The translations under genes were made by a program, and so were the position numbers. Of a stretch of 64,000 bases of DNA, positions 16,401 through 61,907 are shown piece after piece; the first letter of the stretch is position 1, and the number at the start of each line of letters is the position of its first letter. A model generated the notes under the pieces. The model did not search any database. It had not been told where the DNA came from and saw nothing but the letters and a program-made list of their open reading frames with translations. This stretch comes from Lytechinus pictus (taxonomy: Eukaryota): the NCBI RefSeq assembly GCF_037042905.1, contig NC_087250.1:21268001-21332000 (forward strand), given 5' to 3'.

Positions 16401-17295
16401 AAATTGTAAGTCTTTCCTGATAAAAAATTGATAAGATTCTTTTATATATATAGCAACACGACCACCTTTCATATTATTTCTATCAACATGAAGAAGTAAA
16501 TAACCACTGATATTAAATAAATCTGGAGATTTGTCATTTAGCCATGTTTCAGTTACACATATAATACTATATTCATATTCAACAGAAGAAAGCAATTCTT
16601 GAAAAGTATCAAAATTCTTACATAAACTCCTTGAATTTACATGAAGAATTCTGAAATGATTTTCTTGGTAAGTAATCTTATTTTTAAATTCATGGGGTAA
16701 ATAATATTGGCAAGATGACGTTGCAATGACCTCATTTAGTTCCAAATCTATATTACTATCGATCATATAATAAACATGTGAACAAACAATACTTGTATAA
16801 CATAATGATAGTAGGTTTTACGATAATAACGACTTTACTTGCATCTCTTGATAAATAAATATAGCGATGATATAATTTACAAATCGATACACGACTGGTA
16901 CGAAGGTTTTGTGAACTTTCTTGCTGATTCACATTTATATTAATAAAGTAGAAATTATGGAAAATAGATTCAAGACTGACAATCAAATAAAGTGTAAAAA
17001 GAGCATGACATGCTAGAAATATGGCACAGCGATGTGCAAGAAGACAATTACCAAAATATAAGTACAATACAAAACAAATCGTTTTGGTTGAATATATTTT
17101 GATAGACTTGCTCGACCTCAGAAAAACGGAAGAGTAAAGAAACACTCCATTTAAAAGTATTTGTTTTCAAAGTGTACATGTACGAGGAGAAGACGATCCT
17201 AAAATAGTTACTTGTATATATATTTTTAACATATGTGCAACAATGCTACATTGTAACCGTTATGTAATCGGCGTAACCAAAATAGAACTCATCTC
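13437..17295 (-). mobile_element. 5'-truncated, decayed CR1/L2-group LINE (ORF2: APE endonuclease + RT)
   Basis: Frameshifted ORFs: APE (VNSRSL, CVTETWL, GDYNID, SDHLP; 15743-16766) and RT (YRPISIL, QYGFR, DLSKAFD, GVPQGSILGPLLF; 14644-15294). The catalytic motif reads L*ADD. C-terminal pieces 13819-14601; (CAAT)n tail at 13437-13452. Confidence 0.92.
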
Positions 17296-24510: not shown

Positions 24511-27000
24511 ATGATAATTAAAGGATTAGTTTGACACGGCGTCTAAGGAAAAGATGTGACATGTGATTGAGAGAAGCAATATTTTACACTGCAACACTTC
24601 TACATTCGAGACCTATAGCAGCCTTTGTTTTGTGAGTCTTGTTCACACAGACATGACGTTGTTCGAACCGTTTGCTCTCCAGCAATTGCTTCAAGCACAA
24701 GCAATAGCTAGCCAAGCAAAATATCATGCTTCAGCATGTGCTTTATTTCATATGCATAACCGTTTGTTTTTGATTGAAGCCTTTTCTTGCCTTCAGATAG
24801 CAATTGATTGCGGTTTGAACAATAGCGACGTCACACTCGTGCGAACACGACTCACACAAATAGTATCCCTAAATTAGACCCCAAAATAGCCAATCTGGAA
24901 TAAATTTATTGGAAATGGTTTCTCAACTGATTTGAGTAGGTATGGGTGTCAACATTTACCAAAAATTAAGTACCTAGAATGCACATTCACCTATAAAATT
25001 CAAGGTCAAAGCCTTTCAAAGGTGAATGACCCTTATTTACATTACTGTATAATGGTATCTCTGAGATGATAAGGTAGAGGCTGGTGATCATGGTGTCAAA
25101 ATGTACAGATTCAGACAAGAAGATAAAATATAATAAATTCAGGTACCTAGAATGGACATTCACCAATAAAATTCAAGGTCAAAGCTTTCCAAAGGTCAAT
25201 AAACTTTTTACATTATAGGTACCATACAGTATAATGGTATCTCTGAGATGAAAAGGCACAGGTTGGTGATCATGGTGTCAAAATGCACAGATTCTGACCA
25301 GAAGATCAAATTAAATAAAATTAAGTACTTAGAATGCATATTCACCCATAAAATTTAGGGTCAAAGGTCAATGACCTTTTATACATTTATATACCATATT
25401 GTATAATAGTATCTCGAAGATAAAACGGCGCAGGTTGGTGTTCTTGGTGTCAAAATACACAGATTCTTACAGGAAGATTAAATGAAATAAAATTAAGCAT
25501 AGATAATGCACATTCTTCCTTAAATTTCAAGGACAAAGGTCAGTGTCCTTTTTAACATAAGATAATGATCAGGGTATCTCTGGGATAAAACACCACAGGT
25601 TGGTGATCTTGTTGCCAAAATGCGAAGATTTGTACAAAAAGATCAACCAACAATTTGTGATCAAAACTTGGAGGTTTCATAATTTCAGACTGAAATAATG
25701 AAGGTCATTGAGAATGTATCTAGGGGTCAGAGGTCAATGAACTCTTTCCAAAATATCAGTGGAAATTAAGTTTTTAAAAAAGTTGATAACCAAATAACAC
25801 TTCTTCATATATTGCGATGCATTGCCAAAAGTAATGAACAAAAATAAATGAAATCTAGTATGTAATTTGAAATGATTTTTATAGTAGCAGCATTTAATGC
25901 ATCATGATATCTAAATCAAGGTTGTCGTGTCTTTTTCTCTCCAGCGATAGGGCAGTCACCTCAATACTATAATAAATACTATAAACAATCAGCTTAATCT
26001 TCTGAAAATTAATAGGATAGGTCTAACTCTCATGTCACAGCTAGCATCATCTCAGAGCATTTCTACACAGCAGAGGGAAGATGATGATGAAAATGAAATG
26101 AAGGCCATCATTAGAGCTGCAGCTTCTGTCATAGTAAATGTCAGGTATCTCAACTTCAAGAAAGATGAATTCCCAATGATTCCCGTAATATTATTAATTA
26201 CCTCTCATTGCAAGCTGCCAGAATCTCTCGAGATGCTAACGCTGCAGGACAAAACTTCATATCTGCTCTCTGCCGTTCGTCACCCATGATGCTTTTTGGT
26301 CCAACACAAATTAGGCATATGATAATGAAATTCAAAATGAGATAATAGCTTACAAGTACACATCCATCGACCTAAAAAAAACCCTGCAGCTCCACTTCCA
26401 GTTCTTGAGAATCAAGCTGTGCAACATATCAGTTATAATATATAGATCTATCCTAGTTAATAATATAGATCCTGGTCTGATATCCCTTTTACAGAACGTT
26501 AAGCCTTCATTAAATGTGCCAGATCAAAGTCCTGAAAATGTCAGAAGTTTTTCAAAGTTTAAATACTATTTGCTGAAGTTGAGACACTTAATTTCATATA
26601 CTATGATAAAAGCTGCAGCTCTAATGATGGCCTTATTTTAATTCTTCATCATTGTCCATGGCTATATGAAAATGATGCTTGCCATAATAGTGAGGCCTAT
26701 CCTTTCCATTTACAGATTAAGTTATGGTTTATAATATTGATTGTAGAATTTGAGGTTAGTGACCTATTGCTACAGAGAAATTAGTACCTTGATTTAGATT
26801 TATAAAATGCATAGCTAAATGCTGTTACTTTAGACAACTTCACCATTTCAAATTAAATCAAACATGATTTTTTTTACACTTTTGGCAATGCATTACTAAA
26901 ATCTATATCGAAAAGTGCTATTTAATCTCGATTTTACCTCGAACTTGTATTTTGACATCATCATTCGTCAAGGAATCAACTATTAAATTTGTGTTCATTT

Positions 27001-27231
27001 TATAATAATAATAATCAGCTTTTATGTAGCGCTTAATACATCGAAACGACGTGTCTAAGCGCTTTACAGATATATTATTATCCCGGTCATCGGATTCAAT
27101 CAGTTATTCCCGCACACAATGTGTGCGCATCCTCCACTCCCTGGGGAGTATTCCAGTCAGTCGCCGATGAGGCGCACACAGTACTGGACAAGCTTCAATG
27201 ACTTTCACATCATATTGGGTACCCATTTAGC
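27001..27231 (-). mobile_element. tRNA-derived SINE, 3' half (5' half at 37579-37713)
   Basis: (TAA)n tail; body colinear with the uninterrupted copy at 35673-36012. Confidence 0.8.
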
Positions 27232-28429
27232 GGTTCCATGACAATTGCTCCGCCGACAATTGCTACGCAAAATACGACAACTGCTCCGCCGACAATTGCT
27301 CCGGACAGTTGCTCCGCCGACAGTTGCTCCGTCGACACTTGCTCCGCCGATATTTGCTCCGTCGACACTTGCTCCGCCGATATTTGCTCCGCTGATATTT
27401 GCTCCGCCGATATTTGCTCCGTCGACATCTGCTCCGCCGAAAATTGCTTCGCCGACAATTGCTCCGCCGATAGTTGCTCCGCCGACATCTGCTCCGATTA
27501 TACGACAATTGCTCCGCGACAATTGCTCCGCCGATATTTGCTCCGCCGACATCTGCTCCGATTATACGACATTTGCTCCGCCGACAATTGCTCCGCCGAT
27601 AGTTGCTCCGCCGACATCTGCTCCGCCGAAAATTGCTCCGCGACAATTTCTCCGCCGATATCTGCTCCGTCGACATCTGCTCCGTCAATATTTGCTCCGC
27701 CGACATCTGCTCCGCCGAAAATGGCTCCGCCGTAAACTGCTCCGATAATGCTTGCATGATATATTACATGGCATACACAGGGGCCGCGGAACGGTTTTCA
27801 AAGTGGGGGGCTGCATGAGTCTAAAGTGGGGGGGTGACCATGCTAAAAATCGCAATCATATGGTCATTTTTACGTTTTTGTACACGGTTTTGGAAAAAAG
27901 TGGGGGGCTGAAGCCCCACGGATCCGCGGCTCCTGAATTCTGATACATGCATATAGAAAGAAATAGAAAAAAGGGGTAAGCACAAAGGAGGGATAGATAT
28001 TTATTAATTCTTATTCATGGTGGGGGAGCATTTGTGTAAGTTTTATTACGTGCCTGGTGATTACAATGAAAAAAAAATACGCGTTTTCATGTAATTATTA
28101 TAACAGTACAAAGAACTTAGATATACCCCATTCTTAGCGTCAAAATCGCTCTGGCGAAATATGCTCCGAAGTGGAGATATTTGCTCCAGGTGAAATTCAA
28201 CGGTACCCCACCTTTTTTGTCGAAAACCTGTACTGTAGTCACGCAAAATGTTTACTGTCGGCAAATTTTGTCCCACACAAACATGACCAAGACATTCAGT
28301 AATTAAAAATTAATATTCACGAAAATACCAACTTGTGAAACGCTACATGTCGTGTCACCTTCTCGCCACACCCCTCCAATCTGGTTTCCATATCCTCTCG
28401 TATGCACAGTGCTCTGGTCTCCAGATCCA

Positions 28430-29560: not shown

Positions 29561-30775
29561 TGAGTTGCTTTTTTGTTTTATGTGAATCATGATTGTTTTC
29601 TTCACTGATAGAAAAAGGATACTTAATTTTTTTTTTAATTCAAAAATAAAATCCATATGGTCCGCCAATAGTCGAATTATATTCATTCTGATGTTATAAT
29701 GTAAGTAACAATTTGTTGTTGATGGGGGATATATATAATTTTACACGTAGTTTCAAAATAAAACAAATCAATCAAACAAGATTTTCTTCTATAAATGATA
29801 TACCTTCATCTGTATATGGCCGCCTAAGAAGAAAATGAACAAGAAAGAAAATGAAACGGAAAGGGTGAAATGGTATATTATTTTCTGAATATTAAGTCAA
29901 ACTCTTAAAAAAAAAAATCGATTTCTGTATTAAAAATGTCAAAAAATTTGCTCGCTCGCTCGCATCTTTTTAGAACTATTGTTCCATCAGCCATTTTTGG
30001 CTCATTATGCCATTGTGAGCGTCAGACCAGTAGGCCTATAAATAATCCCAGCTTGCATATCGCGCTATTTAGTAAGATACGGAACATGATCGTGTTTTTT
30101 TTTTTTATTCCGTTTTCATAACCTATGAAAAAAAAGTTTCAGCTTATCTCCTCCATAATTTAATTGGCGAGATTCGTATCCTTTTGATTAATTTCTGGAA
30201 CGGATATCAAAATATTTTGAAATATTAAAAAAATGAAAGGAAGGAGAATGAAATATAATACAAATAATACAACTACTACTAATAACAATGATAATAATAA
30301 TAATAATGAAAAAGCAATGGTAATAATAATAATAATAATGACGTGTTTAAAAGTTGCTCCCGTATTTTGCCATCATTTTACTGTTTATCTTACGATTTGT
30401 GGAAGGAAATTTATATCAGCAGATGCAATACAACACCAGGCACCCGATGGAGTACCGTGATTTGCATTTGGAGAATAATTAGGACATATATCAGTGAGTT
30501 TCATGATGTTTTTTATCGAAATTTCATAGAAAGTTGTTATTCGAGAAGCGCGCACGATAACAAGTAGATGATACTACGCTGGCTTGATGGCAACCATTGT
30601 TACGCGCTACTTTGAGTGACGTAGAACGATGAAAGGAGATAATTATGATGGTGGAGAACTGAGATACTTTGGGAGATAAACGGCCTAGCTGAACAAACTT
30701 TTTTAAACTTTAATTGTAAAGTTCCAGGGTAACGCCAACTCTTTTCCCCGAGCCAGGGATACGGCACAATCACTC

Positions 30776-32983
30776 ATGCAAATGATGAATACAGATTTGA
30801 ATACAAACGTTAACGGCGAAAACGAGAGAACTAGCCTGCATAGTTCGCTCGCGCCCGGTATGGATTCTGTGGAGGCTCAGGCAGGATCCAGTCGTCAATC
30901 TACTACTGGACCAAAAACTTCAACAAGAAGAGAATGGAGCAGAAGAGACAATATGAATGTCATGGAATGTTATTATGAGAGCAGACCTGACCAGGAAAGA
31001 GGCTACATCAAGAGAATGTACAAGATCTGGCAAGAGAAGGGTCTTTTCCCAACATCAGAGCAAAGACTTGCAGATCAGGTACGTGTGATCAAAAGGAATG
31101 AGTTACTGACTGAAGTTGAGAGGGAAGGGATCAGACGAAATGTGTATGAACCTGTGAGAGATGAGCAGGAGGAAGTACTCAGACCGGGAAGAGAAGAGCA
31201 GACAGAAGCAACAGCTCAATTTCAAACAGAATTGGATCCAACCACTAACAGATTGGATGAAGAGCAGGAAGAGATAAAGATTATATTATTGGAGATAAAA
31301 GAGTGGGTAACACAAGGAGAGCGCCCCACCCCTCCTAATCTGAAGAGAATACCAAGAGAGAAACTGCTGATAGAAACTCAGAAAGTCAACGATGTTATGA
31401 AGTTTATCAGCTCAGACAGTATTGAGGATACCAATGATCTCATATATGCTGGAGCAGTTCTGGTAACAGAGAGGTTAGGTGTAAGAAAACAGGAGAACAC
31501 AAGGAAGCACTGCCTACCACCATGGAAAAGGAGACTTGATAATCAGATAAAGGGATGGAGGACAGACCTATCAAGACTGACAGAGATAAACCTTGGCAAA
31601 GCAGATATCAATGATTTTAAGTACCTTGAGGAGAAGTTCAGTATTAGAAGGAAAGGAAGGAAGATCGTCGTGGAGGAACTAAAACAAAGGATAACAAGCA
31701 CTACAGCAAAAGTAAAGAGGTACACCGATCGAGTGTCACAGTATAGACAGAATTCCTTGTTTGAGAACAACCAGAAGAGGTTCTACCAAGAAATAAATGG
31801 AAAGATGAAAGACGAAGTTCCACCACCAAATCCAGCTGAAGCAATTGCCTTCTGGAGCAACATTTGGAGCCAACCACACAATCACAACCAAGAAGCTATG
31901 TGGTTGAAAACAACGAAAGAGGAATGTGCAAATATAGTTGCACAGGATGATCTGACGATCAACAAAAGCAAGCTAGAAAAGATCATTAGGAAAATGGCGC
32001 CATGGAAAGCTGCCGGTCCAGACGGTGTGCAAGCTTTCTGGGTTAAAAGGTTCACAAATCTTCATGAAAGGCTGAGCATGCAAATGAACGAGATTGTCGT
32101 GAATGGTAACCCCCCTAATTGGATGACAAAAGGAAGAACGGTTCTCATCCCAAAGGATCCTACCAAAGGCAACATTCCGTCAAACTACCGTCCAATTACC
32201 TGCTTGCCGATTCTCTGGAAGTTACTGACTGGCATAATATCAGAAGAAATATATCAACACCTGGACGATCAAGCCATACTACCATGGGAACAGAAGGGAT
32301 GTAGAAAAGGAAGTAGAGGAACAAAAGAACAACTATGCATCGACAAAGGAATTATGAAAGACAGCAAGAAAAGAAAAACGAACCTCGCAATGGCATGGAT
32401 TGACTACAAGAAAGCATACGACATGGTTCCACACTCTTGGATCATCGAGTCTATGGAAATGTTAGGGGTAGCAGACAATATCAGAAGGTTCCTCATTACA
32501 AGTATGACGAGATGGAGAACTAAGTTGGAAAGTAATGGTGAAGTGCTTGGAGAGGTTGGTATCAAGAGAGGAATCTTTCAGGGAGATAGTCTATCTCCAT
32601 TGCTGTTTGTGATGGCAATGACACCATTAACTAAGGTACTCAGAAGATCCAGGCTAGGATATGAGTTCAAGAGCAAGGCAAAAATCAACCATCTATTATA
32701 CATGGACGATTTGAAGCTGTTTGGTAAGACACAAAGTGACTTGGAGTCTCTCATCAACACTGTGCGGATCTTCAGCGAAGACATCGGTATGCAGTTTGGG
32801 ATGGATAAATGTGCAATGATTACTCTCATGAGAGGTAAGCCAGCCAATGACAACAACTTCCAGATGCCGAACGGAAAAGAGATCAGATCAATCGAAGACG
32901 GTGGTAGCTATAAATATCTCGGAATATTAGAGGCAGATCAGTTGAAACATCAAGAAATGAAGAAGAAGATTGAGGCAGAGTAT
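30776..32983 (+). CDS. R4/Dong ORF, N-terminal and reverse transcriptase part (interrupted by MITE)
   Basis: Motifs WKAAGPDG, NYRPITCL, EQKGC, WIDYKKAYD, GIFQGDSLSPLLF, HLLYMDDLKL, YKYLG; no stops over 736 codons. Confidence 0.93.
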
Positions 32984-34365
32984 CAGTGGCGTAGCTAGGA
33001 TTTTTTTCACGGGGGGGCACTGGGGGGTCCTTGCTTCTTCAGGGGGGGCACCGGCCATTTTTCCGGTGTGTGTGTGTGTATGTGTCACAAGGGCGGATCC
33101 GACTTTCGCCATTAGGGGATGGGGCCCGAAATTATCTTCACCTATATCAGTAACTTCTTAGTTTTATTCTTATAGAACAACATAAACATGAAATAATCTC
33201 ATAAGCCTTATAAAAAGTGCGAGCGCGAAGCGCGAGCGATTTTTAAAAAAAAAAAACTTTCATGTATTTTTTCCTGAAAATTTAATTTTCTGGGCAATGT
33301 TATGTGTGATCCTGAACAAGATTCGTATGTAACTAGATGGTTACTGCGAACGCCAAGCGTGAACAGAAATTTTTATCAACTGTTCTAGCATTATCGAAAA
33401 GGACTGCTTAAGGACTGCTTACAGTTACCCACGAAGACGGTATATATTTCAATAATGCGAGCGCGAAGCGCGAGCAAATTTTTTGACATTCCGACCTAAA
33501 AAATTGTCTTTCTAAGCACTGTTTGTATTAATAAATGGAGTAGATATGTAACTAAATAATTGATGCGAGCGCGAAGCGCGAGAGGAAGAAATTTTAAAAT
33601 TGAGATTTTAGACCTAAAAGCGGGACACTCTATTCATATTTTGTAAATCATAAATAGAATATAGTCAATTGGGTATAATTTATAATGCGATTGTGAAGCG
33701 TGAGTAGACGATTATTGATATTCTGATGTGAAACTGGATAATTTAAGTACATTTTAAATAAAGAACATGCAGGCTATCGCGCATGTTTTAGATTTAGACC
33801 TAGAATCTGGGCATTCTGAATACATTTGTTTAATGGAACATTATGGAATACAATATGAACTTGGCAAATCAAACAATGTGACCGCGCAGCGTGAGCTTAA
33901 AATGCTGATATGTAGACCATAAAACGGGCCGATTTCACAGAGCACTTAAATTTGTAAATGAAAAAAAAATAATGAAAGCTCGATGTCCGAGCTAAAATAT
34001 GTTTTGCATATTGACTTCAAAACTTGCTCCATATCAGCCTATTGAGCAAGATATGAATCTCATCGAACAGGCAATTCTGGCGCGAAGCGCCAGCAAAAAT
34101 TTTATATAGTAACATGAAAAGATTTGTTTTTTAATTGCAAGTCTTCCCCTCACATTATTTCATTCACTCGTCTTCCTCCTCTTATTTTCCTCTTCTTTTT
34201 TTTCTTCTGTCTTTCTTCTTCTTTTCTTTTTTCTTTTCTTCTTTCTCCCTTTTTTTTTTTTTTTTTTTTGCTCTGCCAATTTTTTCTGGGGGGGCACCTG
34301 GGGGGGCACACCAAATCTCAGGGGGGGCACGTGCCCCCCCAGGCCCCCCCGTAGCTACGCCACTG
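32984..34365. mobile_element. hAT-type MITE inserted in the R4/Dong ORF
   Basis: TIRs CAGTGGCGTAGCTA / TAGCTACGCCACTG; 8-bp TSD CAGAGTAT at 32976-32983 and 34366-34373; internal GCGAGCGCGAAGCGCGAGC motifs. Confidence 0.92.
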
Positions 34366-34373
34366 CAGAGTAT

Positions 34374-35534
34374 ATCAGGAGAATTCGGAAGGTGCTCAAA
34401 TCCAAATTAAATGCTGGAAACATGGTGAAGGCTGTTAACACTTGGGCAGTAGCCCTAGTGAGATATGCTGCTGGCATAGTTGAATGGAACAAGCTTGAAC
34501 TCGAAACCCTGGACAGGAAGACAAGGAAGTTGCTAACTATGCATGGGATGTTTCACCCAAAGTCTGATGTAGATAGACTTTATGTGTCAAGAGAGAAGGG
34601 AGGACGTGGTCTGACTGGAATAGAGGAGACTGTAAGATATGAGGAACAAAGCCTATACTGCTATATTGAAGGCCAGATGGATAGCATCATGGCGGCAGTC
34701 AAAGACTCGATGAGGAAAGGAAAGGATGTGACAGCGAAACAGCTGAAGGCTGATCAAAGGAAAATGAGACTGGAAGGATGGAAAGAGAAGGTGATGCACG
34801 GGCAGCATTTAAGACAGACAGAGGAGTTTGCTGGACCAGAGAGTTGGCAGTGGCTGAAACGAGGAAGTTTAAAGAAGGAGACGGAAAGTATGCTAGTTGC
34901 TGCTCAGGACCAAGCAATTAGAACAAATTACCGAAGAGCCAAAGTTGAAAAGGAGCATACATCTCCCTCATGTAGAATGTGTCATGACAAAGACGAAACG
35001 GTGTCTCATCTGGTGAGTGAATGCAGCAAAATGGCACAGACAGAGTACAAAGGAAGGCACGACAGAGTAGCAGCTGCGGTTCATTGGGGTCTGGCCAAGA
35101 AGTACCATTTACCTCATGCGGAAAAATGGTACGAACATCGGGCAGAGCCTGTAGTAGAGAACGACGATGTAAAACTTTTATGGGATTTTAATATCCAGAC
35201 AGACAAGGTCATTGAAGCTAGACGACCAGACATCGTTCTCTTAAAGAAGAAGGAAAAGGAATGTCTCATCATAGATATTGCGATTCCGGGAGACTGCAGA
35301 GCTTGGCGTAAAGAGGAGGAAAAGATACAGAAGTATAAGGATCTGGCATGGGAGCTGAGAAGGATATGGAAGGTGAAGACGAAGGTGGTACCAATAGTCA
35401 TCGGAGCCTTAGGAACAGTGACAACAAGACACAGAAGCTTTCTGGCTGTTCTAGGAGTCGAGGTGTCCTTTGAAACGATACAGAAGGCAAGCTTGCTTGG
35501 AACAGCTAATATCTTACGGAAGGTCTTGAATTAG
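34374..35534 (+). CDS. R4/Dong ORF, C-terminal part: CCHC zinc knuckle and restriction-like (REL) endonuclease
   Basis: CRMC...H...C, RHD, RPDIV...IIDIAIP, KIQKY motifs; joins the upstream part in frame (EAEY|IRRIRKVLKSKLN) after removing the MITE and one TSD copy. Confidence 0.92.
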   Translation: MRRIRKVLKSKLNAGNMVKAVNTWAVALVRYAAGIVEWNKLELETLDRKTRKLLTMHGMFHPKSDVDRLYVSREKGGRGLTGIEETVRYEEQSLYCYIEGQMDSIMAAVKDSMRKGKDVTAKQLKADQRKMRLEGWKEKVMHGQHLRQTEEFAGPESWQWLKRGSLKKETESMLVAAQDQAIRTNYRRAKVEKEHTSPSCRMCHDKDETVSHLVSECSKMAQTEYKGRHDRVAAAVHWGLAKKYHLPHAEKWYEHRAEPVVENDDVKLLWDFNIQTDKVIEARRPDIVLLKKKEKECLIIDIAIPGDCRAWRKEEEKIQKYKDLAWELRRIWKVKTKVVPIVIGALGTVTTRHRSFLAVLGVEVSFETIQKASLLGTANILRKVLN

Positions 35535-36012: not shown

Positions 36013-37578
36013 ACTTTAAACTTTAGTCTTTAGTTAGGACTAACCCTTTAAAAAAAAAAATCCGCTTTTAGCGGCTGATCGGCGAAAATGTGGATGAAAA
36101 TGTTTTTTCCACCCGGCCCCCAACCCTAGTGGCGAAAGCTTGGTCCACTCCTTAAATATGTCTCAAGTTCACGATCACAAAATGTCCCTTTTCTGAAATA
36201 TATAAAAAATATTCAATTAGCGCATTGCGCTCTCACTATGAAATATCTCCCCCCCCCCCCGAGATATGCTTCAATGTTTACAATTTTCCAGGTCAATAAC
36301 AGCTCGCGCTTTGTGCTCGCATTATAAATTCAGTTTAATGCGTATCGGGTTTCATGAATTTGTAACTATATTATTACTGGTATATATATTATTGTCTTTT
36401 AAAAATAACATTATTTGTTTAGACGTAGTGAGAGAGATACATATATTCATTTATTAAAACCTATTTATATTGTCGCTATTGCACAGAATAGAACAAAAAT
36501 ACAACCGAAGTCTAGTTTTATAGTAACTCACCAGTAGCGTAATGAGCCAACAACAACAATTGGAGTGGGCCAGACAAGGATTACATTTATTTTCCTTTCC
36601 TTTATTTTTTTTTTTCATTGGTAGGGAGAATGGGGGGGGGGGGATCCGAGACCACTAGCACACCCCTCCCCCATCTGTACACCAGTGATGATCATACTTT
36701 CGTTTGGAACAAATTGAAAGAAAAAAGATGCAAGGGTAGATAAGGCCCAAGATGTAAATAAAAATTATTGATAAAAATATCAATAATTATAATGCTGCTA
36801 AATATACAATAAATCAAGCGGTCATCAATGAAAATAAACAGCGTGAAAGAACAAAACGAGAAAGAGAGAGAGCCCGTGCGAATGTATGGCGTATAAGTTG
36901 CTGAAAAGCAGAAGAGATATTGTGTCCAGCACCCCCCCCCCCCAATTTCTCTCCCCGCTCAAGACCGGATTGAAACCAATGATAATAACATATGAACAAA
37001 AATCCAGATTCACAATTTCAATGGGGAGTGTGTCATTCCCCTTCTCCGTTACAATTTGTCAAGTGGCAGCGGCAGGGAGAACGATTTGTTTTGTTTTTTT
37101 TAAGCAGAAAGCTGTGATGATAGGGGGAGAATAAAATAAATAAAATATTAACGAATAACAAGAAAAAAAAACCAACATAACAATTTGTATCAGGATGAAT
37201 ATCTTATCATTTCAAACATAGACCAACTTTGAGAAATAAGATGTTCATGCAATTGTCGTATAATCGGAGCAGATGTCGGCGGAGCAAATATCGGCGGAGC
37301 AATTGTCGGCAGAGCAGATGTCGACGGAGCAATTATCGGCGGAGCAATTATCGCGGAGCAATTGTCATATAATCGGAGCAGAAGTCGGCGGAGCAAATAT
37401 CGGTGGAGCAAATATCGGCGGAGCAGATGTCGGCGGAGCAGATATCGGCGGAGCAAGTGTCGACGGAGCAACTGTCGGCGGAGCAACTGTCCGGAGCAAT
37501 TGTCGGCGGAGCAGTTGTCGTATTTTGCGTAGCAATTGTCGGCGGAGCAGATATCGGCGGAGCAATTGTCGGGTCACC

Positions 37579-37713
37579 CATTTAGCACCTGGGTCGAGGG
37601 TGGCAAAGTGTGGATTAACGCCTTGCCAAAGGACGCCAGACCGCGATGGGATTCGAACACACGATCCTCTCTTTACAAGGCGAGAGTCTGAACCACTACA
37701 CCACGGCTCCTCC
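37579..37713 (-). mobile_element. tRNA-derived SINE, 5' half
   Basis: Minus strand reads GGAGCCGTGGTGTAGTGG (A box) ... GTTCGAATCCC (B box). Confidence 0.8.
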
Positions 37714-40700
37714 ATTTTCCATGCAGGTCAGTCTGTTTCCCATCAGAATCACTATATACATGCCACAATTAAGTTATCGACCTATTTACTTAAATTCCCT
37801 GACGTTATTGACATGGTTGATTGACCTCTAGCCCCTACATATATTTTTCATGGCCATTATTTATCCTTATTTCAGAGTGAAATTATTAAACATCCAAGTT
37901 TTCATTACACATATTTACCTTTCTTTCTATTATTCACATATAAAATGTGAATATAATGGATTAATTTCTTTTTGGGGGAATCATGCATGGATATATAAAT
38001 ATTTACTATCTTTTGACCTTTGACTTTGGATATCAAAGGTGAAGGATTATTCTTTATGATTATTTTGTGCCTTTTTATCTTCTTGCAAAAATTGTTTTTT
38101 GACACCAAAATCACCAACATGCAGTGTTTTATCTAGGAGATACCATTAAACGATATATATAGCCTATGTAAAAAAGCCAATGACCTTTGACCTTGAACTT
38201 TATTGATTATTATGCATTCTGGGTACTTAATCTAATTTCATTTGATCTTCCTGTATACCTCTGCATTTTGACACCAAGATCACCAAACTGCGTCTTTTCA
38301 TCTCAGAGATACCGTATATGGTAAATAAGGCGAAAAAGGTAATTGACCTTTGAAAGGCTTTAACCTTGAATTTCATTGGTGAATGATCATTGTACGTACT
38401 TGATTTTATTTTATTTGATCTTCTTGTAAGAATATGTACATTTTGACAACAAGATCACCAACCTGTGCCTTTTCATCTCAGATATACCATTATACGTATA
38501 TGTTATATAATGTGAAAAGGGTCATTGACATTTGAAAGGTTTTGACCTTGAATTTAATGGGTGAATGAGCATTGTAGGTACTTGCTTTTATTTTATTTGA
38601 TCTTCTTGTAAGAATCTGTGCATTTTGACACCATGATCACCAACCTGTAATATTTTATCTGGGAGATACCATGATACAGAATATTTAAAAAGGTCATTGA
38701 CCTTTAACCTTGAAAAAAACTTTCCCCAACCCGTATTCCTCCTAACTTTTTTGGTAAATGTTGACACCAATATCTTCTCAAATCAGTCAAAAAAACATTT
38801 CCAATAATTTTATTCCAGATGGTTACTAATTACGGGATACTCAAAATGCAGGGCTCAAACACAACGGTTTGACAGAGCAAATTACCGCTTCTTTCCTATA
38901 ACATCTCTTCCTCAGACGTGGTGTCAAACTAACTTGTTTCTTTTTGATAAATTTATATATTTGGCATTTGATTTGCACTTTTTAGATTTATTAGGAAGAA
39001 AAATTGTACATGTAGGCTACTGTACACCTTGGGGTTCTCACTTGCATAAAAATGACAAAAAAATCGCAAACGCCCTGATCAAGTAAACGCTCAAGCTGCT
39101 CTGACGGAGCTTGAAAAAAAAACGCACGAGCGAAATGTTCCCTTTATGCATAAAATTTTTAGCAATGACTTAATCGTGAAGCAAATGCTAGCAGGCAGTT
39201 AGTCATTGCTTGAGCTTACTAGCAAAAGCATTTGCTTGCTCATTTTTATACATACAGAATCAAGCAAAAGCCTAGCAAAAGCAATTGCTACTTTATATGC
39301 ATCTGACCCATTGTCCCCTTGTGTAAATAGTCTTTTATGAACAAAATAATAGTATTGATTGATTGCAGTTACATTGTTGCATTCTCTGTTTCTCGCAGTG
39401 GGTTCACGTAGTAACCACCTAAACTGGGTATGATTTGTTTTTAGACAAACTAAACGGAATTATTAAAGGGAACTCAATTTAAGAACGGGGGGGGGGGGAC
39501 TAAAGATAGGCTCATATAAACGATCAAAATTACAATTTCATTTTGTTTTCATTGTCAGACGAAAGCTTACAAATCATATTCTTTTTTTCTTATCTCATTT
39601 ATGCTGTATATATATATAAAGTGTAGGTAATGTTTTATATAAATGACTTCAGCACTTTGATCTGATCAATCAAGTGTATATATTTTTTTTAATTTAACCT
39701 CAGCTGACTGCATACTTATGTGAACCAAATCGATAGTTTAGTAAAACAATATTTCGAAATGTAATAAACTTTATATTGTCTATACGATCCTATTTGAGGA
39801 AAGGCTGAATATTCTAATGAAATTAATTTCAGACATAATTATGATAGAATATTTAAACAGAATGGGGGGCATAAGTTATATGATAGCAACTACAATTTTG
39901 CACACGAAGTGCAAATCTGACGACCCAGCCGTGGTGGCGAAAACTTTCCACTAACACGATGTACAGCACAATTAGAATGAGTGATCTCGATATTTAAATT
40001 TGCATTACTTTCCCATTACTTGTCAAGCTTATTAAAGCTTTCGTTGATCTTATTTTGTTTCTGTTTTTTAAGAGCTAACTTGCTATAAGGGTTTCATTCA
40101 CCTTAAAAACCCACGTTTCCACTAAGGCCACGACAGCGCCAGGACAATGCGCGGAATGCAGCATTTGCAACCCACGTCCCTACCGCAACCTGTCCGGCTG
40201 TCCGGACATTCCAAGGGGTGTCTGCGCGCTGTCCTTAACCCTTCATAAGGTTCGGGACATCAACATTTGTCCGCATCCGAATTTAGTCGAGAGTAAAATC
40301 TGGACACGGAAAGTGAATTCCTGACACATTCGGGACCTTGTCCTGACGATGTCCCGATGATGTCCCACCCTTTCTAAACCCTTCCTCGTCTTCCGCAAAC
40401 CCTCCGAAACCAATCCCCAATCAGGACAGCTTCAGGAAGCAGAGCAGCCAAGGGTTCAGGAACTTTCAGGAACGTGCAGACTGGAATAAGAAGGCAAGCG
40501 GAGTGATTCGGGAACACGCGGACAGGAATGAGAAGTCAAGCGGAACGTATCAGGAATGTGTGGATCCAATGCTAATATGTATGGAACGGGTACACAAGCA
40601 ACAAAAGCCATTTTTGGTCAGTGCGCGAGAGTGGGGCAACGGGACATAATACAAGACAACAGCATCGCAAAACGTAGCGAAGAACAGGGTCAAGTTGCCT

Positions 40701-49443: not shown

Positions 49444-49510
49444 TATATATATATATTTGTGTGTGTGAGGGTGTGTGCGTGTGTGTGTATGTATATATAT
49501 ATACACACAC

Positions 49511-49599
<89 letters not shown>

Positions 49600-49621
49600 T
49601 GTGTGTGTGTGTGTGTGTGTG
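49444..49621. repeat. (TA)n/(TG)n compound microsatellite
   Basis: Direct reading. Confidence 0.95.
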
Positions 49622-49767
49622 AAGTTATACATGTACAACAGCTTTGGCAACTCTTTTTATTTTAAATATTGTAAAGAAATGAATGAAGAGAACAATGGTA
49701 GGTGTAGTATAAATCAAGGTTACCCAGAGCTATCTACCCTTTGGAAAAATTGGTGATGCCGAAAAAA

Positions 49768-49839
49768 TGTCTTTGCCGGGAATCGAACCCGGGCCCCCAG
49801 CTTTGAACGCCGGTGCCTTAACCACTAGACCACAGAGGT
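49768..49839 (-). pseudogene. tRNA-like copy (anticodon TCA) with damaged acceptor stem
   Basis: Same D, anticodon and T arms as the forward copies; acceptor ACCTCTG/CAAAGAC has 3 mismatches, two at the inversion junction. Confidence 0.75.
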
Positions 49840-50017
49840 ATGGTGTATGGTATACGTGTACTGTATAAAAGCAATAGCTTTGATCCAGCTGAGGCATGGC
49901 GGCTTGTCATTGTTCAAAACCCACCTTCACCCGACAAAGGAAATTATAATTGGTATAGTGTCGAAAATCTGTCTATCTGACGGTCAATCGGATCGGGGTC
50001 GCCCTAGCCACTAACCT

Positions 50018-50089
50018 GTCTCTGTGGTCTAGTGGTTAAGGCACCGGCGTTCAAAGCTGGGGGCCCGGGTTCGATTCCCGGCAGAGACA
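50018..50089 (+). tRNA. tRNA-like gene, anticodon TCA (opal-suppressor-type, not tRNA-Sec architecture)
   Basis: Acceptor GTCTCTG/CAGAGAC, D arm GTCT/AGGC, anticodon arm CCGGC-GTTCAAA-GCTGG, 4-nt variable loop, T arm CCGGG-TTCGATT-CCCGG, discriminator A, then T6 terminator. Confidence 0.7.
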
Positions 50090-50424
50090 TTTTTTCGGCA
50101 TCACCAATTTTTCCAAAGGGTAAATAGCTCTGGGGAACCTTGATTTAAGCTACGCCTACCATTGTTCTCTTCATTCATTTCTTTACAATATTTAGAATAA
50201 AAAGAGTTGCCAAAGCTGTTGTACATGTATAACTTCACACATTTGTATACTTTCTCCCATACGTGTACTGTATCAAAGCAATAGCTTTGATCCAGCTGAG
50301 GCATGGCGGCTTGTCATTGTTCAAAACCCACCTTCACCCGACAAAGGAAATTATAATTGGTATAGTGTCGAAAATCTGTCTATCTGACGGTCAATCGGAT
50401 CGGGGTCGCCCTAGCCACTAACCT

Positions 50425-50496
50425 GTCTCTGTGGTCTAGTGGTTAAGGCACCGGCGTTCAAAGCTGGGGGCCCGGGTTCGATTCCCGGCAGAGACA
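50425..50496 (+). tRNA. tRNA-like gene, anticodon TCA (identical to 50018-50089)
   Basis: Identical cloverleaf and T6 terminator. Confidence 0.7.
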
Positions 50497-50831
50497 TTTT
50501 TTCGGCATCACCAATTTTTCCAAAGGGTAAATAGCTCTGGGGAACCTTGATTTAAGCTACGCCTACCATTGTTCTCTTCATTCATTTCTTTACAATATTT
50601 AGAATAAAAAGAGTTGCCAAAGCTGTTGTACATGTATAACTTCACACATTTGTATACTTTCTCCCATACGTGTACTGTATCAAAGCAATAGCTTTGATCC
50701 AGCTGAGGCATGGCGGCTTGTCATTGTTCAAAACCCACCTTCACCCGACAAAGGAAATTATAATTGGTATTGTGTCGAAAATCTGTCTATCTGACGGTCA
50801 ATCAGATCGGGGTCGACCTAGCCACTAACAC

Positions 50832-50903
50832 GTCTCTGTGGTCTAGTGGTTAAGGCACCGGCGTTAAAAGCTGGGGGCTCGGGTTCGATTCCCGGCAGAG
50901 ACA
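50832..50903 (+). tRNA. tRNA-like gene variant, anticodon TAA
   Basis: Loop GTTAAAA; one C>T change in the T stem gives a U-G wobble; T6 terminator kept. Confidence 0.6.
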
Positions 50904-51117
50904 TTTTTTCGGCATCACCAATTTTTCCAAAGGGTAGATAGCTCTGGAGAACCTTGATTTAAGCTACGCCTACCATTGTTCTCTTCATTCATTTCTTTAC
51001 AATATATATATATATATATATATATTGCGCAGAGTAGGCCTAGATGTTTTACACATCGTTTCGGCCTCGTAATCATTAAAGGGGGAACAAACATGCACGA
51101 TACGAGGCTGTGATAAT

Positions 51118-60726: not shown

Positions 60727-61907
60727 GTCTAGCCTGCATAGCAGAGCGAGACTATAGGCGCCGCTTTTCCGACGGCGGCGGCGTCAACATCAAATCTTAA
60801 CCTAAGGTTAAGTTTTTGAAATGACATCATAACTTAAAAAGTAAATGGACCTAGTTCATGAAACTTTGACATAAGGTTGATCAAGTACTACTGAACATCC
60901 TGCTTGAGTTTCAGGTCACATGACCAAGGTCAAAGGTCATTTAGGGTCAATGAACTTAGACCATGTTGGGAAAATTATTTTCAAAATCTTAACCGAAGGT
61001 TAAGTTTTTGAAATGACATCATAACTTAGAAAGTATATAGACCTAGTTCATGAAACTTAGACATAAGGTTAATCAAGTATTAGTAAACATCCTGGTTGAG
61101 TTTCAGGTCACGTGATCAAGGTCAAATGTCATTTAGGGTCAATGAACTTTGGTCAAGTTGGGGGTATTTGTTGAATTACTATCATAACTTTGAAAATTTA
61201 TGGATTTAGTTCATGAAACTTGGACATTAGGTTGATCAAGTACCACTGAATATCCTGTGCGAGTTTCAGGTCACATGACCATGGTCAATGGTCATTTAAG
61301 GTCAATGAACTTTGGCCGTGTTGGGGGTATATGTTAAATTACCATCCTAGCTCTGAAAGTTTATGGATCTAGTTCATAAAACTTGGACATAAGAGTAATC
61401 AAGTATCACTGAACATCCTGTACGAGTTTCAGGTCACATGACCATGGTCAAAGGTCATTAAAGGTCAATGAACTTTGGCCGTGTTGGGGGTATTTGTTGA
61501 ATTACCATCCTAACTGTGAAAGTTTATGGATCTATTTCATAAAACTTGGGATATAAGAGTAATCAAGCATCACTGAACATCCCCTGTGAGTTTCAGGTCA
61601 CAAAACCAAGTCAAAGGTCAGTTAAGGTCAATAAACTTAGGCCATGTTGGGGTAATTGTTGAAGTGCCATCATAACTTTGAAAGTTTATGGATAGAGTGA
61701 ATGAAATGTGGACATTGGTGTAGTTGACAGTCTTAAGTCTCCGTTCAAATGTCATTTATGGTCAATGAACGTGGTATTATGTCATTATATGAATGATGTT
61801 TTTGTGAATGATTATTTATATAGTAGTTTATAGTAGTTTTCAAAGTTAGCACTGCTGCTATATTAAATTGCGTAATGCAGGCGAGACTGCCAAAGGCGTT
61901 CCACTTG
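60727..61907 (+). mobile_element. Helentron-associated non-autonomous element (HINE/DINE-1-like) with ~180-bp internal tandem repeats
   Basis: Asymmetric sub-terminal inverted repeats GTCTAGCCTGCAT / ATGCAGGCGAGAC; T-run flanks with no TSD; about 5 tandem units containing GGTCAAAGGTCA. Confidence 0.7.

What the first reader, a model, noticed from the sequence alone, without database searches (positions are those of the whole stretch)
50018..50903. Repeat-borne tRNA genes with a UCA (opal-reading) anticodon and their own Pol III terminator
Seen: each 407-bp unit holds a 72-nt cloverleaf with all four stems paired, A and B boxes, and TTTTTT right after the discriminator. Two intact copies and the damaged inverted copy read TCA; one reads TAA. 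Established: tRNA-Sec has a long variable arm, which is absent here. SINE heads are normally read through into a body rather than terminated, and often lose acceptor-stem pairing. The D and T arms resemble eukaryotic tRNA-Glu but the acceptor stem does not. Inference: a mobile or amplifying unit may carry a stand-alone UGA-suppressor-like tRNA or tRNA mimic. Caveat: G at position 32 is atypical and may impair decoding.
Basis: partly seen in the sequence, partly recalled or inferred. Interest (0 to 1): 0.85.

Follow-up and report, generated by a model that had tools for sequence, protein, structure and literature searches.

The report
Repeat family carrying tRNA-like UCA genes
The tRNA genes with a stop-codon-reading anticodon are real in the sequence, but they belong to a young repeat present in well over a thousand decaying copies, so they are most likely relics carried by selfish DNA, not working stop-codon suppressors.

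Summary
Window 49616-51008 carries four 72-nt tRNA-like cloverleaves in a 407-bp repeat. Three read TCA and one reads TAA. Each is followed at once by TTTTTT.

It is not a private locus. The host genome is a eukaryote of 812 Mb. A 32-nt stretch around the anticodon occurs at 1,775 places in it, in arrays of up to at least 40 units and in hundreds of short fragments. TCA is the family consensus: 82 of 83 copies in sampled loci, 99 of the first 100 places genome-wide.

Individual copies decay as fast inside the tRNA as outside it, with no compensatory pair changes. Poly-A-type RNA-seq shows even, two-strand, low coverage with no tRNA-sized peak. A separate tRNA-Sec candidate exists elsewhere.

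The D and T arms match the genome's own tRNA-Glu. The anticodon loop is closer to tRNA-Gly(UCC). G32 is atypical.

Insertions sit in (TA)n microsatellites. Their downstream ends are fixed at unit positions about 177 or 224-234, and their upstream ends vary. Many have a head-to-head inverted arm. This polarity points to copying from a single-stranded sense template, most likely reverse transcription with twin priming.

Verdict: a tRNA-derived satellite or retroposon family. A suppressor function is unlikely but untested.

The parts
49448..49637 (.). Left flank: compound (TG)n(TA)n(TG)n microsatellite that the insertion abuts
   Evidence: (TA x56 at 49488-49600). The miRNA-family hits here are all below gathering score and lie on the microsatellite.
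49616..49837 (-). Inverted arm: unit positions 224 down to 3, outer end running into (CA)n(TA)n
   Evidence: I1, 222 nt, 97%; L001: '-' 3-224, 96.8%.
49768..49839 (-). Damaged tRNA-like copy, anticodon TCA. The 5' acceptor is cut at the junction and there is G>A in the 3' acceptor strand. Its T-run is at 49762-49767.
   Evidence: (45.2 bits).
49840..49851 (.). 12-nt filler at the head-to-head junction between the inverted arm and the direct array
   Evidence: The stretch between the two matches aligns to no part of the unit.
49852..50017 (+). Partial unit (positions 242-407), upstream part of the direct array
   Evidence: 99.4%.
50018..50424 (+). Full 407-bp unit 1: tRNA-like gene 50018-50089 (anticodon TCA at 50051-50053, G32 at 50049), T6 at 50090-50095
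   Evidence: 60.9 bits.
50425..50831 (+). Full unit 2: tRNA-like gene 50425-50496 (TCA), T6 at 50497-50502
   Evidence: (60.9 bits).
50832..51008 (+). Terminal partial unit (positions 1-177): tRNA-like gene 50832-50903 with C35>A (anticodon TAA, a Leu-type reading) and C>T in the T stem; T6 at 50904-50909. It ends at the family's usual downstream end.
   Evidence: (58.3 bits).
51002..51025 (.). Right flank: (TA)n microsatellite

Best explanation
The cloverleaves are the tRNA-derived module of a young, high-copy repeat family with a 407-bp unit. They are not members of the organism's decoding tRNA set.

Shown:
- The family has at least about 1,800 copies on many chromosomes, as long head-to-tail arrays and as short fragments.
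- TCA, G32 and the T-run belong to the family consensus.
- Individual copies accumulate mutations in the tRNA as fast as elsewhere.
- High-frequency (subfamily) variants are scarce in unit positions 1-170, which is the tRNA plus about 100 nt downstream. This fits constraint on source copies only.
- Insertions lie in (TA)n or (CA)n(TA)n tracts. Their downstream ends are fixed at unit positions about 177 or 224-234 and their upstream ends vary. Often a head-to-head inverted arm is present, so both outer ends are downstream-type.

Inferred:
- The strict polarity means new copies are made from a single-stranded template of tRNA-sense polarity. The most likely route is this: array transcripts are reverse-transcribed by a LINE enzyme, primed by nicked TA-rich target DNA that pairs with UAUA-like sites or a (UA)n tail. 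The self-complementary TA target lets both strands prime (twin priming), which yields the inverted arms. Arrays then change length by unequal exchange.
- The UCA anticodon is a by-product of the module's divergence from a Glu/Gly-like tRNA and has no decoding role.
- The conserved tRNA plus 3' block probably serves the element's own propagation, for example Pol III/TFIIIC binding, RNA stability or reverse-transcriptase recognition.
For: Copy number and spread:
- 166 scored matches from 1,473 first-look candidates, at 87-100% identity.
- 1,775 exact places for the 32-nt pattern against 0 for the control, including an array at 406-bp spacing on C2:8866150-8882827.

Consensus:
- Anticodon TCA in 82 of 83 readable copies in 30 loci and in 99 of the first 100 listed places.
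- T-run columns read T in 110-112 of 111-112 copies. G32 is present in 107 of 107.

Neutral decay of copies:
- Private variants run at 6.9 per kb-copy in the tRNA against 6.1 in the rest.
- Stem variants are single-sided.

Source-level constraint:
- Sites with minor-allele frequency of 5% or more: 1 of 72 (tRNA), 4 of 98 (73-170), 13 of 71 (171-241), 14 of 166 (242-407). Fisher test, tRNA against the rest, p = 0.027.
- The RNA-run variant sites I transcribed give 1 of 72 against 27 of 335, p = 0.04.

Polarity:
- Of 81 outer ends in 39 loci, 61 are downstream-type, and 55 of those lie at 170-178 or 214-234. The other 20 are upstream-type, and 17 of those lie elsewhere.
- Genome-wide, the junction 'unit...177 + (TA)4' has 31 places. 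The mirror junction '(TA)5 + unit 176...' has 0. The uninterrupted form has 38.
- Flanks are TA-rich at 43 of 61 downstream-type ends and 13 of 20 upstream-type ends.
- Upstream ends are not enriched at tRNA +1, so Pol III transcripts are not the template.

No discrete RNA:
- 2,078 of 12.9 million RNA-seq records lay on the unit.
- The two mate orientations have equal depth.
- There are no start or end pile-ups.
- Reads cross unit and inverted junctions.

Relation to real tRNAs:
- The genome's own tRNA-Glu genes share 44-48 of 72 positions with it: T arm 17/17, D arm 13/16, anticodon arm 5-7/17.
- The real tRNA-Gly(UCC) has a similar anticodon loop and 3' stem.

A tRNA-Sec candidate lies elsewhere.

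Published hallmarks of tRNA-derived repeats include identical flanks, anticodon/isotype disagreement and more than 40 hits per anticodon (tRNAscan-SE 2.0 paper, PMC8450103; passages read).
Against: - The consensus cloverleaf is unusually intact for a repeat-borne tRNA relic. All stems pair, although both acceptor strands differ from tRNA-Glu at 4-6 of 7 positions. The T-run sits exactly where a stand-alone Pol III gene needs it.
- TCA is also kept in two older copies of about 87-90% identity, L081 and L082.
- The tRNA is the least variable part among subfamilies and in contigs of three other coded organisms. Some function of the tRNA shape is therefore likely, and a decoding function in a few copies cannot be excluded.
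- No data here can see mature, CCA-tailed or charged tRNA.
- The reverse-transcription step is inferred from geometry only. No target-site duplications can be read in (TA)n, and no partner LINE was identified.
- The constraint statistics are modest (p about 0.03-0.05) and the sampled sites are not fully independent.
Confidence: 0.72

Rival explanations
1. Some copies are working Pol III genes whose product is charged and reads UGA, acting as a repeat-borne opal suppressor or recoding tRNA. A recalled lead is that eukaryotic TrpRS might charge it, given A73, G1-C72 and C35-A36.
For: - Complete cloverleaf at 60.9 bits, A and B boxes, and T6 directly after the discriminator.
- TCA is the consensus and is kept in older copies.
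- The tRNA is the least variable segment among subfamilies.
Against: - Private mutations are as dense in the tRNA as outside it.
- No compensatory changes were seen.
- G32 occurs in 107 of 107 copies. A purine at position 32 is atypical; this is recalled, not tested.
- There is no long variable arm and no G3:U70, which rules out the synthetases that ignore anticodons (recalled identity rules).
- About 1,800 promoter-bearing copies would be a heavy read-through load.
- The adjacent non-tRNA block at 73-170 is nearly as conserved.
- A canonical tRNA-Sec candidate already exists.
Confidence: 0.07
2. The tRNA module is a tRNA mimic with a non-decoding role. It might be a TFIIIC/Pol III binding site acting on chromatin, an RNase P/Z processing signal in array transcripts, or a source of small RNAs. 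Such a role could serve the host or the element.
For: - Constraint at subfamily level on positions 1-170 without constraint on individual copies.
- Intact boxes and terminator across the family.
- Weak sub-threshold resemblance to mascRNA-type models: 25.2 bits against a gathering score of 42.5.
Against: - No start or end pile-ups at the tRNA borders in RNA reads.
- Retroposed copies run straight through the tRNA, so the template RNA is not cut there.
- Nothing here measures protein binding.
Confidence: 0.2
3. The family spreads only at the DNA level. Fragments of satellite arrays, for example from extrachromosomal circles, are captured when fragile (TA)n tracts break, and are joined by microhomology. 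No reverse transcription is involved.
For: - Both flanks are (TA)n.
- The ends lie at the TA-like spots of the unit.
- Arrays demonstrably change length at the DNA level: the window copy has one unit more than its two segmental duplicates.
Against: The ATAT motif at position 177 is palindromic, so a double-stranded donor should give both polarities. Observed: 31 junctions against 0 genome-wide, and 55 of 61 against 3 of 20 in sampled loci. The variable upstream ends and head-to-head arms match 5' truncation and twin priming.
Confidence: 0.2
4. It is an ordinary tRNA-derived SINE: a Pol III transcript that starts at tRNA +1, with a body and a simple-repeat tail, sometimes tandemised.
For: - tRNA-related part, a (TA)n tail-like end, and 5' truncation.
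- Tandem-like and palindromic SINE structures are described in bivalves (PMC11481361, passages read).
- SINE-derived satellites are described in squamates (PMC10702118, abstract read).
Against: - T6 at unit positions 73-78 and a T5 further on would stop Pol III before the body.
- Only 1 of 20 upstream-type ends is at position 1. Most copies extend 70-270 nt upstream of the tRNA into the preceding unit.
Confidence: 0.05

Closest known systems
tRNA-derived repetitive elements that tRNA finders report as tRNA genes, including unexpected or 'suppressor' anticodons (tRNAscan-SE 2.0 paper, PMC8450103; passages read)
   Same: - High copy number with identical flanks.
- The anticodon disagrees with the body's isotype likeness.
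- Copies decay slowly, so anticodon changes are not selected against.
   Different: - The consensus keeps a full cloverleaf at 60.9 bits.
- It has its own T-run directly after the discriminator.
- The module lies inside a 407-bp tandem unit, not at the head of a SINE.
SINE-derived satellites and tandem-like or palindromic SINE arrays (squamates: PMC10702118, abstract read; bivalves: PMC11481361, passages read; limpet PcH-sat: PMC11121367, abstract read)
   Same: - A tRNA-related retroposon sequence organised head-to-tail and head-to-head.
- Both dispersed and arrayed copies.
- Young and homogeneous.
   Different: - No SINE with this head, starting at +1, was found.
- An internal Pol III terminator is present.
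- Ends are set by (TA)n junctions inside the unit.
- Whether this genome is a mollusc or a reptile relative is unknown.
Twin priming and 5' truncation of LINE-mediated insertions, and non-LTR elements that target microsatellites (recalled from the L1 and target-specific LINE literature; no paper was read here)
   Same: - Fixed 3' end and variable 5' end.
- An inverted 5' segment whose outer end is a priming site.
- Insertion in simple repeats.
   Different: - The template is a non-coding tandem-array transcript.
- The tails and targets are (TA)n, so both strands can prime at the same motifs.
- No partner LINE was identified.
tRNA-Sec, the only canonical UCA tRNA of animals
   Same: Anticodon UCA, and the loop reads UUCAAA from position 33.
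   Different: It is 72 nt with a 4-nt variable loop and 7/5 acceptor/T stems. It is absent from the RF01852 match list, which instead finds an 86-nt gene at C2:54020026-54020111 scoring 76.9 bits.
MITE-like elements with a tandem-repeat core in bivalves (CvA/pearl; Helentron-associated HINE). CvA as described in PMC5874043, passages read; HINE paper PMC7492417 seen in a search listing only.
   Same: Short dispersed arrays of a satellite-like unit next to microsatellites.
   Different: - There are no constant non-repeat 5' and 3' modules and no tetranucleotide tract.
- The ends fall inside the unit itself.
- The junctions are polar.

Membership tests
Cytosolic decoding tRNA gene | Cloverleaf matching the tRNA covariance model | tested here: met
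   RF00005 scores 60.9, 60.9, 58.3 and 45.2 bits against a gathering score of 29.
Cytosolic decoding tRNA gene | Internal A and B boxes and a downstream T-run | tested here: met
   Read. T-run columns are T in 110-112 of 111-112 copies. The box consensus is recalled.
Cytosolic decoding tRNA gene | An anticodon expected for eukaryotic decoding, agreeing with the body's isotype | tested here: not met
   The anticodon is UCA. The body is Glu-like in the D and T arms and Gly(UCC)-like in the loop. Isotype-specific models (tRNAscan-SE) were not available.
Cytosolic decoding tRNA gene | Purifying selection on gene copies, with flanks that differ between copies | tested here: not met
   Private variants run at 6.9 against 6.1 per kb-copy. 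The flanks are the same repeat unit at 1,775 places.
Cytosolic decoding tRNA gene | Mature, CCA-tailed, aminoacylated RNA | not testable with these tools
   Only poly-A-type RNA-seq could be laid. It shows no discrete product, but it would not capture tRNA.
tRNA-Sec | Long variable arm, extended acceptor/T helix, about 85-90 nt | tested here: not met
   It is 72 nt with a 4-nt variable loop. The RF01852 search lists other loci only, the best at 76.9 bits on C2.
tRNA-derived SINE | Copies start at tRNA +1 (Pol III transcript) | tested here: not met
   1 of 20 upstream-type ends is at position 1. Most lie 70-270 nt upstream, in the preceding unit.
tRNA-derived SINE | No Pol III terminator between head and tail | tested here: not met
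   T6 lies at unit positions 73-78.
tRNA-derived SINE | Fixed 3' end with a simple-repeat tail, 5' truncation, target-site duplication | tested here: inconclusive
   The fixed 3' ends and variable 5' ends are met. Duplications cannot be read inside (TA)n.
Satellite DNA / tandem array | Long head-to-tail arrays of a homogeneous unit | tested here: met
   At least 40 units at 406-bp spacing on C2. 21 units at C4:26.000-26.009 Mb.
CvA/pearl or Helentron-borne repeat arrays | Constant non-repeat terminal modules flanking the repeat core | tested here: not met
   Outer ends fall within the unit and abut (TA)n directly. Helitron-type end motifs were checked by eye only.

The most novel reading that the evidence does not exclude
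A mobile satellite has scattered about 1,800 Pol III-ready genes for a UCA tRNA through an animal genome. A subset is expressed and charged under some conditions, giving a repeat-encoded, tunable UGA read-through activity. The cloverleaf has been kept intact by selection for that activity and not merely for the element's spread.
Probability: 0.05. Interest if true: 0.8.

Novelty: new member of a known kind. Interest (0 to 1): 0.3.

Why it matters
Annotation: this family would add well over a thousand false 'SeC' or suppressor tRNA calls to any tRNA scan of this genome. ARAGORN already labels them SeC. They need to be masked as repeats.

Repeat biology, two points:
- It links a tRNA-derived module, a satellite and dispersed insertions in one family.
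- The strictly polar junctions in (TA)n tracts, with frequent head-to-head arms, give a clean natural data set for microhomology-primed copying (probably twin-primed reverse transcription) into a self-complementary microsatellite.

Recoding: if the small chance that some copies are charged proved true, it would be a rare natural case of a repeat-borne stop-codon suppressor in an animal.

Tried and rejected
- Earlier findings of this scan: three look-ups, by place, by sequence and by words, returned nothing.
- A whole-genome RF00005 search to find the parent tRNA returned only tRNA-Lys arrays, because few candidates are scored. I replaced it with pattern searches.
- One search used a pattern that I mistyped with one extra T. 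It gave 1 irrelevant hit and should be ignored.
- Parent assignment stays open. Over the 54-nt core, the real Glu-TTC and the real Gly-UCC both match at 39 of 54 by my hand count.
- One 90% copy (L088) reads TCC with a canonical Gly loop. It was found by a search aimed at that loop, so it may be a chance double change. I do not count it as evidence that the ancestor was Gly.
- The big Glu-TTC-like SINE family (L083, L084) shares only the tRNA part with the unit, at 72-74% identity, so it is not the source.
- Taxon: the Atlas look-up with a reverse-transcriptase ORF from the window gave only 'Eukaryota', with Chordata or Arthropoda the commonest.
- Helitron, foldback and Tc1-type MITE readings were rejected. 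There are no constant termini, many copies have no inverted arm, and the end motifs are absent (by eye).
- Hammerhead or other ribozymes and other RNA families in the unit: none at E up to 1 other than tRNA. The miRNA-family and Plastid-ycf2 rows are sub-threshold hits on microsatellite or on the reverse strand of the tRNA.
- Literature: four full-text searches found no description of a tRNA(UCA)-bearing 407-bp repeat. Two more searches failed on term syntax and were not repeated. Repbase and Dfam could not be queried, so 'not catalogued' is not shown.
- The runs of organisms B, C and D are contigs only. They show that the family, with an unchanged tRNA part, is present there, but not how related those organisms are.
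Full report
**What is in the window**

Tandem Repeats Finder reports a 407-bp period over 49852-51005, with 2.8 copies and 98% matches. An inverted arm at 49616-49837 is 97% complementary to the start of each direct unit.

Mapping the unit back onto the region gives one compound insertion (locus L001):
- an inverted arm (unit positions 224 down to 3);
- 12 nt of filler;
- a partial unit (242-407);
- two full units;
- a final partial unit (1-177).

The insertion lies between a (TG)n(TA)n(TG)n tract on the left and a (TA)n tract on the right.

ARAGORN calls four tRNA genes, three with tca and one with taa. Rfam's tRNA model scores them 60.9, 60.9, 58.3 and 45.2 bits against a gathering score of 29.

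Read directly:
- The acceptor, D, anticodon and T stems pair. The D stem and the anticodon stem each contain one G.U.
- The variable loop has 4 nt and the discriminator is A.
- TTTTTT follows the discriminator at once.
- Position 32 is G.

The minimum-energy fold forms three of the four stems but not the D stem.

**How common it is**

The window lies in an 812-Mb eukaryotic assembly of 368 contigs. The 407-bp unit gave 166 scored matches out of 1,473 first-look candidates, at 87-100% identity, on many contigs.

A 32-nt pattern spanning the D-stem end, the anticodon arm and the variable loop, with the anticodon left free, has 1,775 exact places and none for the reversed control. The places include an array at 406-bp spacing on C2:8866150-8882827, where the listing stops, and many isolated sites.

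The window's own locus is one of three segmental duplicates on the same contig. Their flanks are 96-99% alike, and the window copy has one unit more than the other two.

**The anticodon and the state of the copies**

TCA is the family consensus:
- In the 30 loci first fetched I found 88 distinct tRNA hits. Of the 83 with a readable loop, 82 read TCA. The single TAA is the window's own third copy.
- Of the first 100 places listed genome-wide, 99 read TCA and one reads TCT.

This does not show selection, because three bases in a family that is 97-98% uniform are expected to be intact.

The sharper test uses 163 aligned pieces from 50 loci, about 107 tRNA copies:
- Variants confined to one locus occur at 6.9 per kb-copy in the tRNA and 6.1 in the rest. 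Individual copies therefore decay as fast in the tRNA as elsewhere.
- The stem variants listed are single-sided. Several recurrent ones are transitions that leave a G.U pair, and others break pairs. I did not tabulate pairs copy by copy.
- Variants at 5% frequency or more, which mark subfamilies, are scarce in the tRNA (1 of 72) and in the next 98 nt (4 of 98). They are commoner in positions 171-241 (13 of 71) and 242-407 (14 of 166).

The same picture comes from 2,078 RNA-seq reads of a run labelled with the same organism. Of the variant sites at 10% or more that I transcribed, 1 falls in the 72-nt tRNA and 27 fall in the other 335 nt (six further rows were not shown by the tool). It also comes from contigs of three other coded organisms. 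One of these has six differences of its own in the 166 nt upstream of the tRNA and none in the tRNA or the next 86 nt.

The statistics are modest (Fisher p about 0.03-0.05). They fit the usual pattern of a mobile family: source copies are constrained and daughter copies are not. The constrained block is positions 1-170, not the tRNA alone.

**Expression**

The only raw RNA data that could be laid were ordinary transcriptome libraries. Coverage of the unit is even at about 200-480, and the two mate orientations are equal. No places were found where molecules begin or end, and reads cross both the unit-to-unit joint and the inverted joints.

The share of reads laid is about 0.016%, that is 2,078 of 12.9 million records read. 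This is below the family's share of the genome, which is about 0.09% (1,775 x 407 bases of 812 Mb; my arithmetic). This is what low-level read-through transcription or a little DNA carry-over would give. Such libraries cannot show a mature tRNA, so expression as a small RNA remains untested.

**What the tRNA is related to**

A pattern keeping the D loop and T loop but excluding the family's own D stem found 243 places. Among the first 100 listed were:
- this genome's real tRNA-Glu genes (CTC and TTC);
- a large SINE-like family with a Glu-TTC-like head;
- mutated or older members of the present family.

I fetched three real tRNA-Glu genes. They share 44-48 of 72 positions with the repeat's tRNA:
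- T arm 17/17;
- D arm 13/16;
- anticodon arm 5-7/17;
- acceptor strands 1-3/7 each.

Their T-runs start 2-8 nt after the gene and not at once.

The real tRNA-Gly(UCC), clustered on C13, has a loop and 3' anticodon stem closer to the repeat's. Over the 54-nt core, both real tRNAs match at 39 positions by my hand count. The parent therefore cannot be named.

Older family members of about 87-90% identity (L081, L082) keep TCA and the T-run, but have stem mismatches that are not compensated. One 90% copy (L088) reads TCC in a canonical Gly-type loop. It was found by a search aimed at that loop, so it may be a chance double change.

The genome also has a proper tRNA-Sec candidate: 86 nt, 76.9 bits, on C2, with a twin on C25. 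The repeat copies do not appear in that search's list.

**How the family spreads**

In 39 non-redundant loci I classified 81 outer ends of repeat blocks.
- 61 are downstream-type, meaning the end towards which the tRNA points. 55 of these lie at unit positions 170-178 (25 ends) or 214-234 (30 ends).
- 20 are upstream-type. 17 of these are scattered elsewhere, and only one is at tRNA position 1.
- Flanks are TA-rich at 43 of 61 downstream-type ends and at 13 of 20 upstream-type ends.

Downstream-type ends outnumber upstream-type ends because many insertions, including the window's, carry a head-to-head inverted arm. In those, both outer ends are downstream-type.

A genome-wide check on one subfamily gives the same answer. 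The junction 'unit up to 177, then TA repeats' has 31 places. The mirror junction 'TA repeats, then unit from 176 on' has none. The uninterrupted sequence has 38.

The ATAT motif at position 177 and the target (TA)n are both self-complementary. A double-stranded DNA donor should therefore give both polarities. The strict polarity points to a single-stranded template with the sense of the tRNA.

The simplest reading, which is an inference, has four steps:
1. Array transcripts are reverse-transcribed from nicked (TA)n target DNA.
2. The target DNA pairs with UAUA-like sites or with a (UA)n tail.
3. cDNA synthesis is often incomplete, which gives the variable upstream ends.
4. The second target strand, which is just as TA-rich, often primes on the same RNA. 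This is twin priming, and it gives the inverted arms.

In the window, the inverted arm ends at 224-232 and the direct part starts at 242. That is the geometry twin priming predicts, although in a periodic template this is not a strong test.

Pol III cannot supply this template, for two reasons. T6 at positions 73-78 and a T5 further on would stop it, and copies do not start at +1. Array length then changes at the DNA level. No partner LINE was identified, and target duplications cannot be read inside (TA)n.

**Comparison with what is known**

- The tRNAscan-SE 2.0 paper (PMC8450103, passages read) lists signs of tRNA-derived repeats: identical flanks, disagreement between anticodon and isotype model, unexpected anticodons and very many hits per anticodon. 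It notes that anticodon changes in such elements are not selected against. This family shows these signs.
- Tandem-like and palindromic SINE structures are reported in bivalves (PMC11481361, passages read). SINE-derived satellites are reported in squamates (PMC10702118, abstract read). A SINE-related satellite is reported in a limpet (PMC11121367, abstract read).
- The present family differs in four ways. It keeps a full cloverleaf. It has a terminator directly behind the cloverleaf. The tRNA lies inside the unit and not at the head of the element. The junctions in (TA)n are polar.
- It fails the tests for tRNA-Sec, for a canonical SINE and for the CvA/Helentron-type repeat carriers (see Membership tests).
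- Four full-text searches found no description of it. Repeat databases could not be queried.

**Verdict**

The evidence points to a tRNA-derived module of selfish repeated DNA, not to a working opal suppressor.

I put about 0.72 on that reading and about 0.07 on a decoding role for some copies. A non-decoding role for the tRNA shape, such as promoter or factor binding, RNA handling, or recognition during copying, is plausible and compatible with the main reading. Interest is modest. The most useful by-products are a warning for tRNA annotation of this genome and a clear natural example of polar, probably RNA-mediated, insertion of satellite units into (TA)n tracts.

Noticed in passing
window 24963-27744 and 37249-38693: A structure of about 14 kb whose two sides are inverted copies of each other. 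The arms are built of 172/182-bp tandem repeats and a 15-bp minisatellite, with arm pairs up to 95% complementary. Reverse-transcriptase-like ORFs (30707-32998, 34113-35534) lie between them.
   Followed up: partly
window 13819-16817 (-): A run of ORFs with endonuclease/reverse-transcriptase-like text, probably a decayed LINE. It was not scanned against families.
   Followed up: no
G000:C6 21.064, 21.318 and 21.608 Mb (L023, L001, L002): The window's insertion and its flanks exist three times on the same contig at 96-99% identity, so this is a segmental duplication. The window copy has one more 407-bp unit.
   Followed up: partly
G000:C4:9700711-9735957: A dense array of tRNA-Lys (TTT and CTT) genes with many variant copies. 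It gave 49 matches over the Rfam cut-off.
   Followed up: partly
G000:C2:54020026-54020111 and C25:889015-889100: A canonical tRNA-Sec candidate, 86 nt, 76.9 bits, in two identical-scoring copies.
   Followed up: no
G000:C13:22080300-22158139: A cluster of about 30 tRNA-Gly(UCC) genes on both strands.
   Followed up: no
L083 and L084 (G000:C5:11042493, C1:19695511) and most rows: A large SINE-like family whose head resembles tRNA-Glu(TTC). It shares the D-loop and T-loop words with real tRNA-Glu, and its body is unrelated to the 407-bp unit.
   Followed up: partly
L012 about 2110-2140; L018 about 2800-2830; loose ends of run X21 at window 50187: A Tc1/mariner-like terminal sequence beginning TACAGTGCGTCCCA lies in the same (TA)n tracts, so these tracts collect several kinds of insertion.
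   Followed up: no
window 49445-49620: The miRNA-family rows (mir-297, mir-466 and others) are all below gathering score and lie on the TG/TA microsatellite. They are artefacts of simple sequence.
   Followed up: yes
window 10940-12203 and 60792-61715: Other tandem repeats: a 425-bp unit x3, and 163/192-bp units x4. Neither was examined.
   Followed up: no
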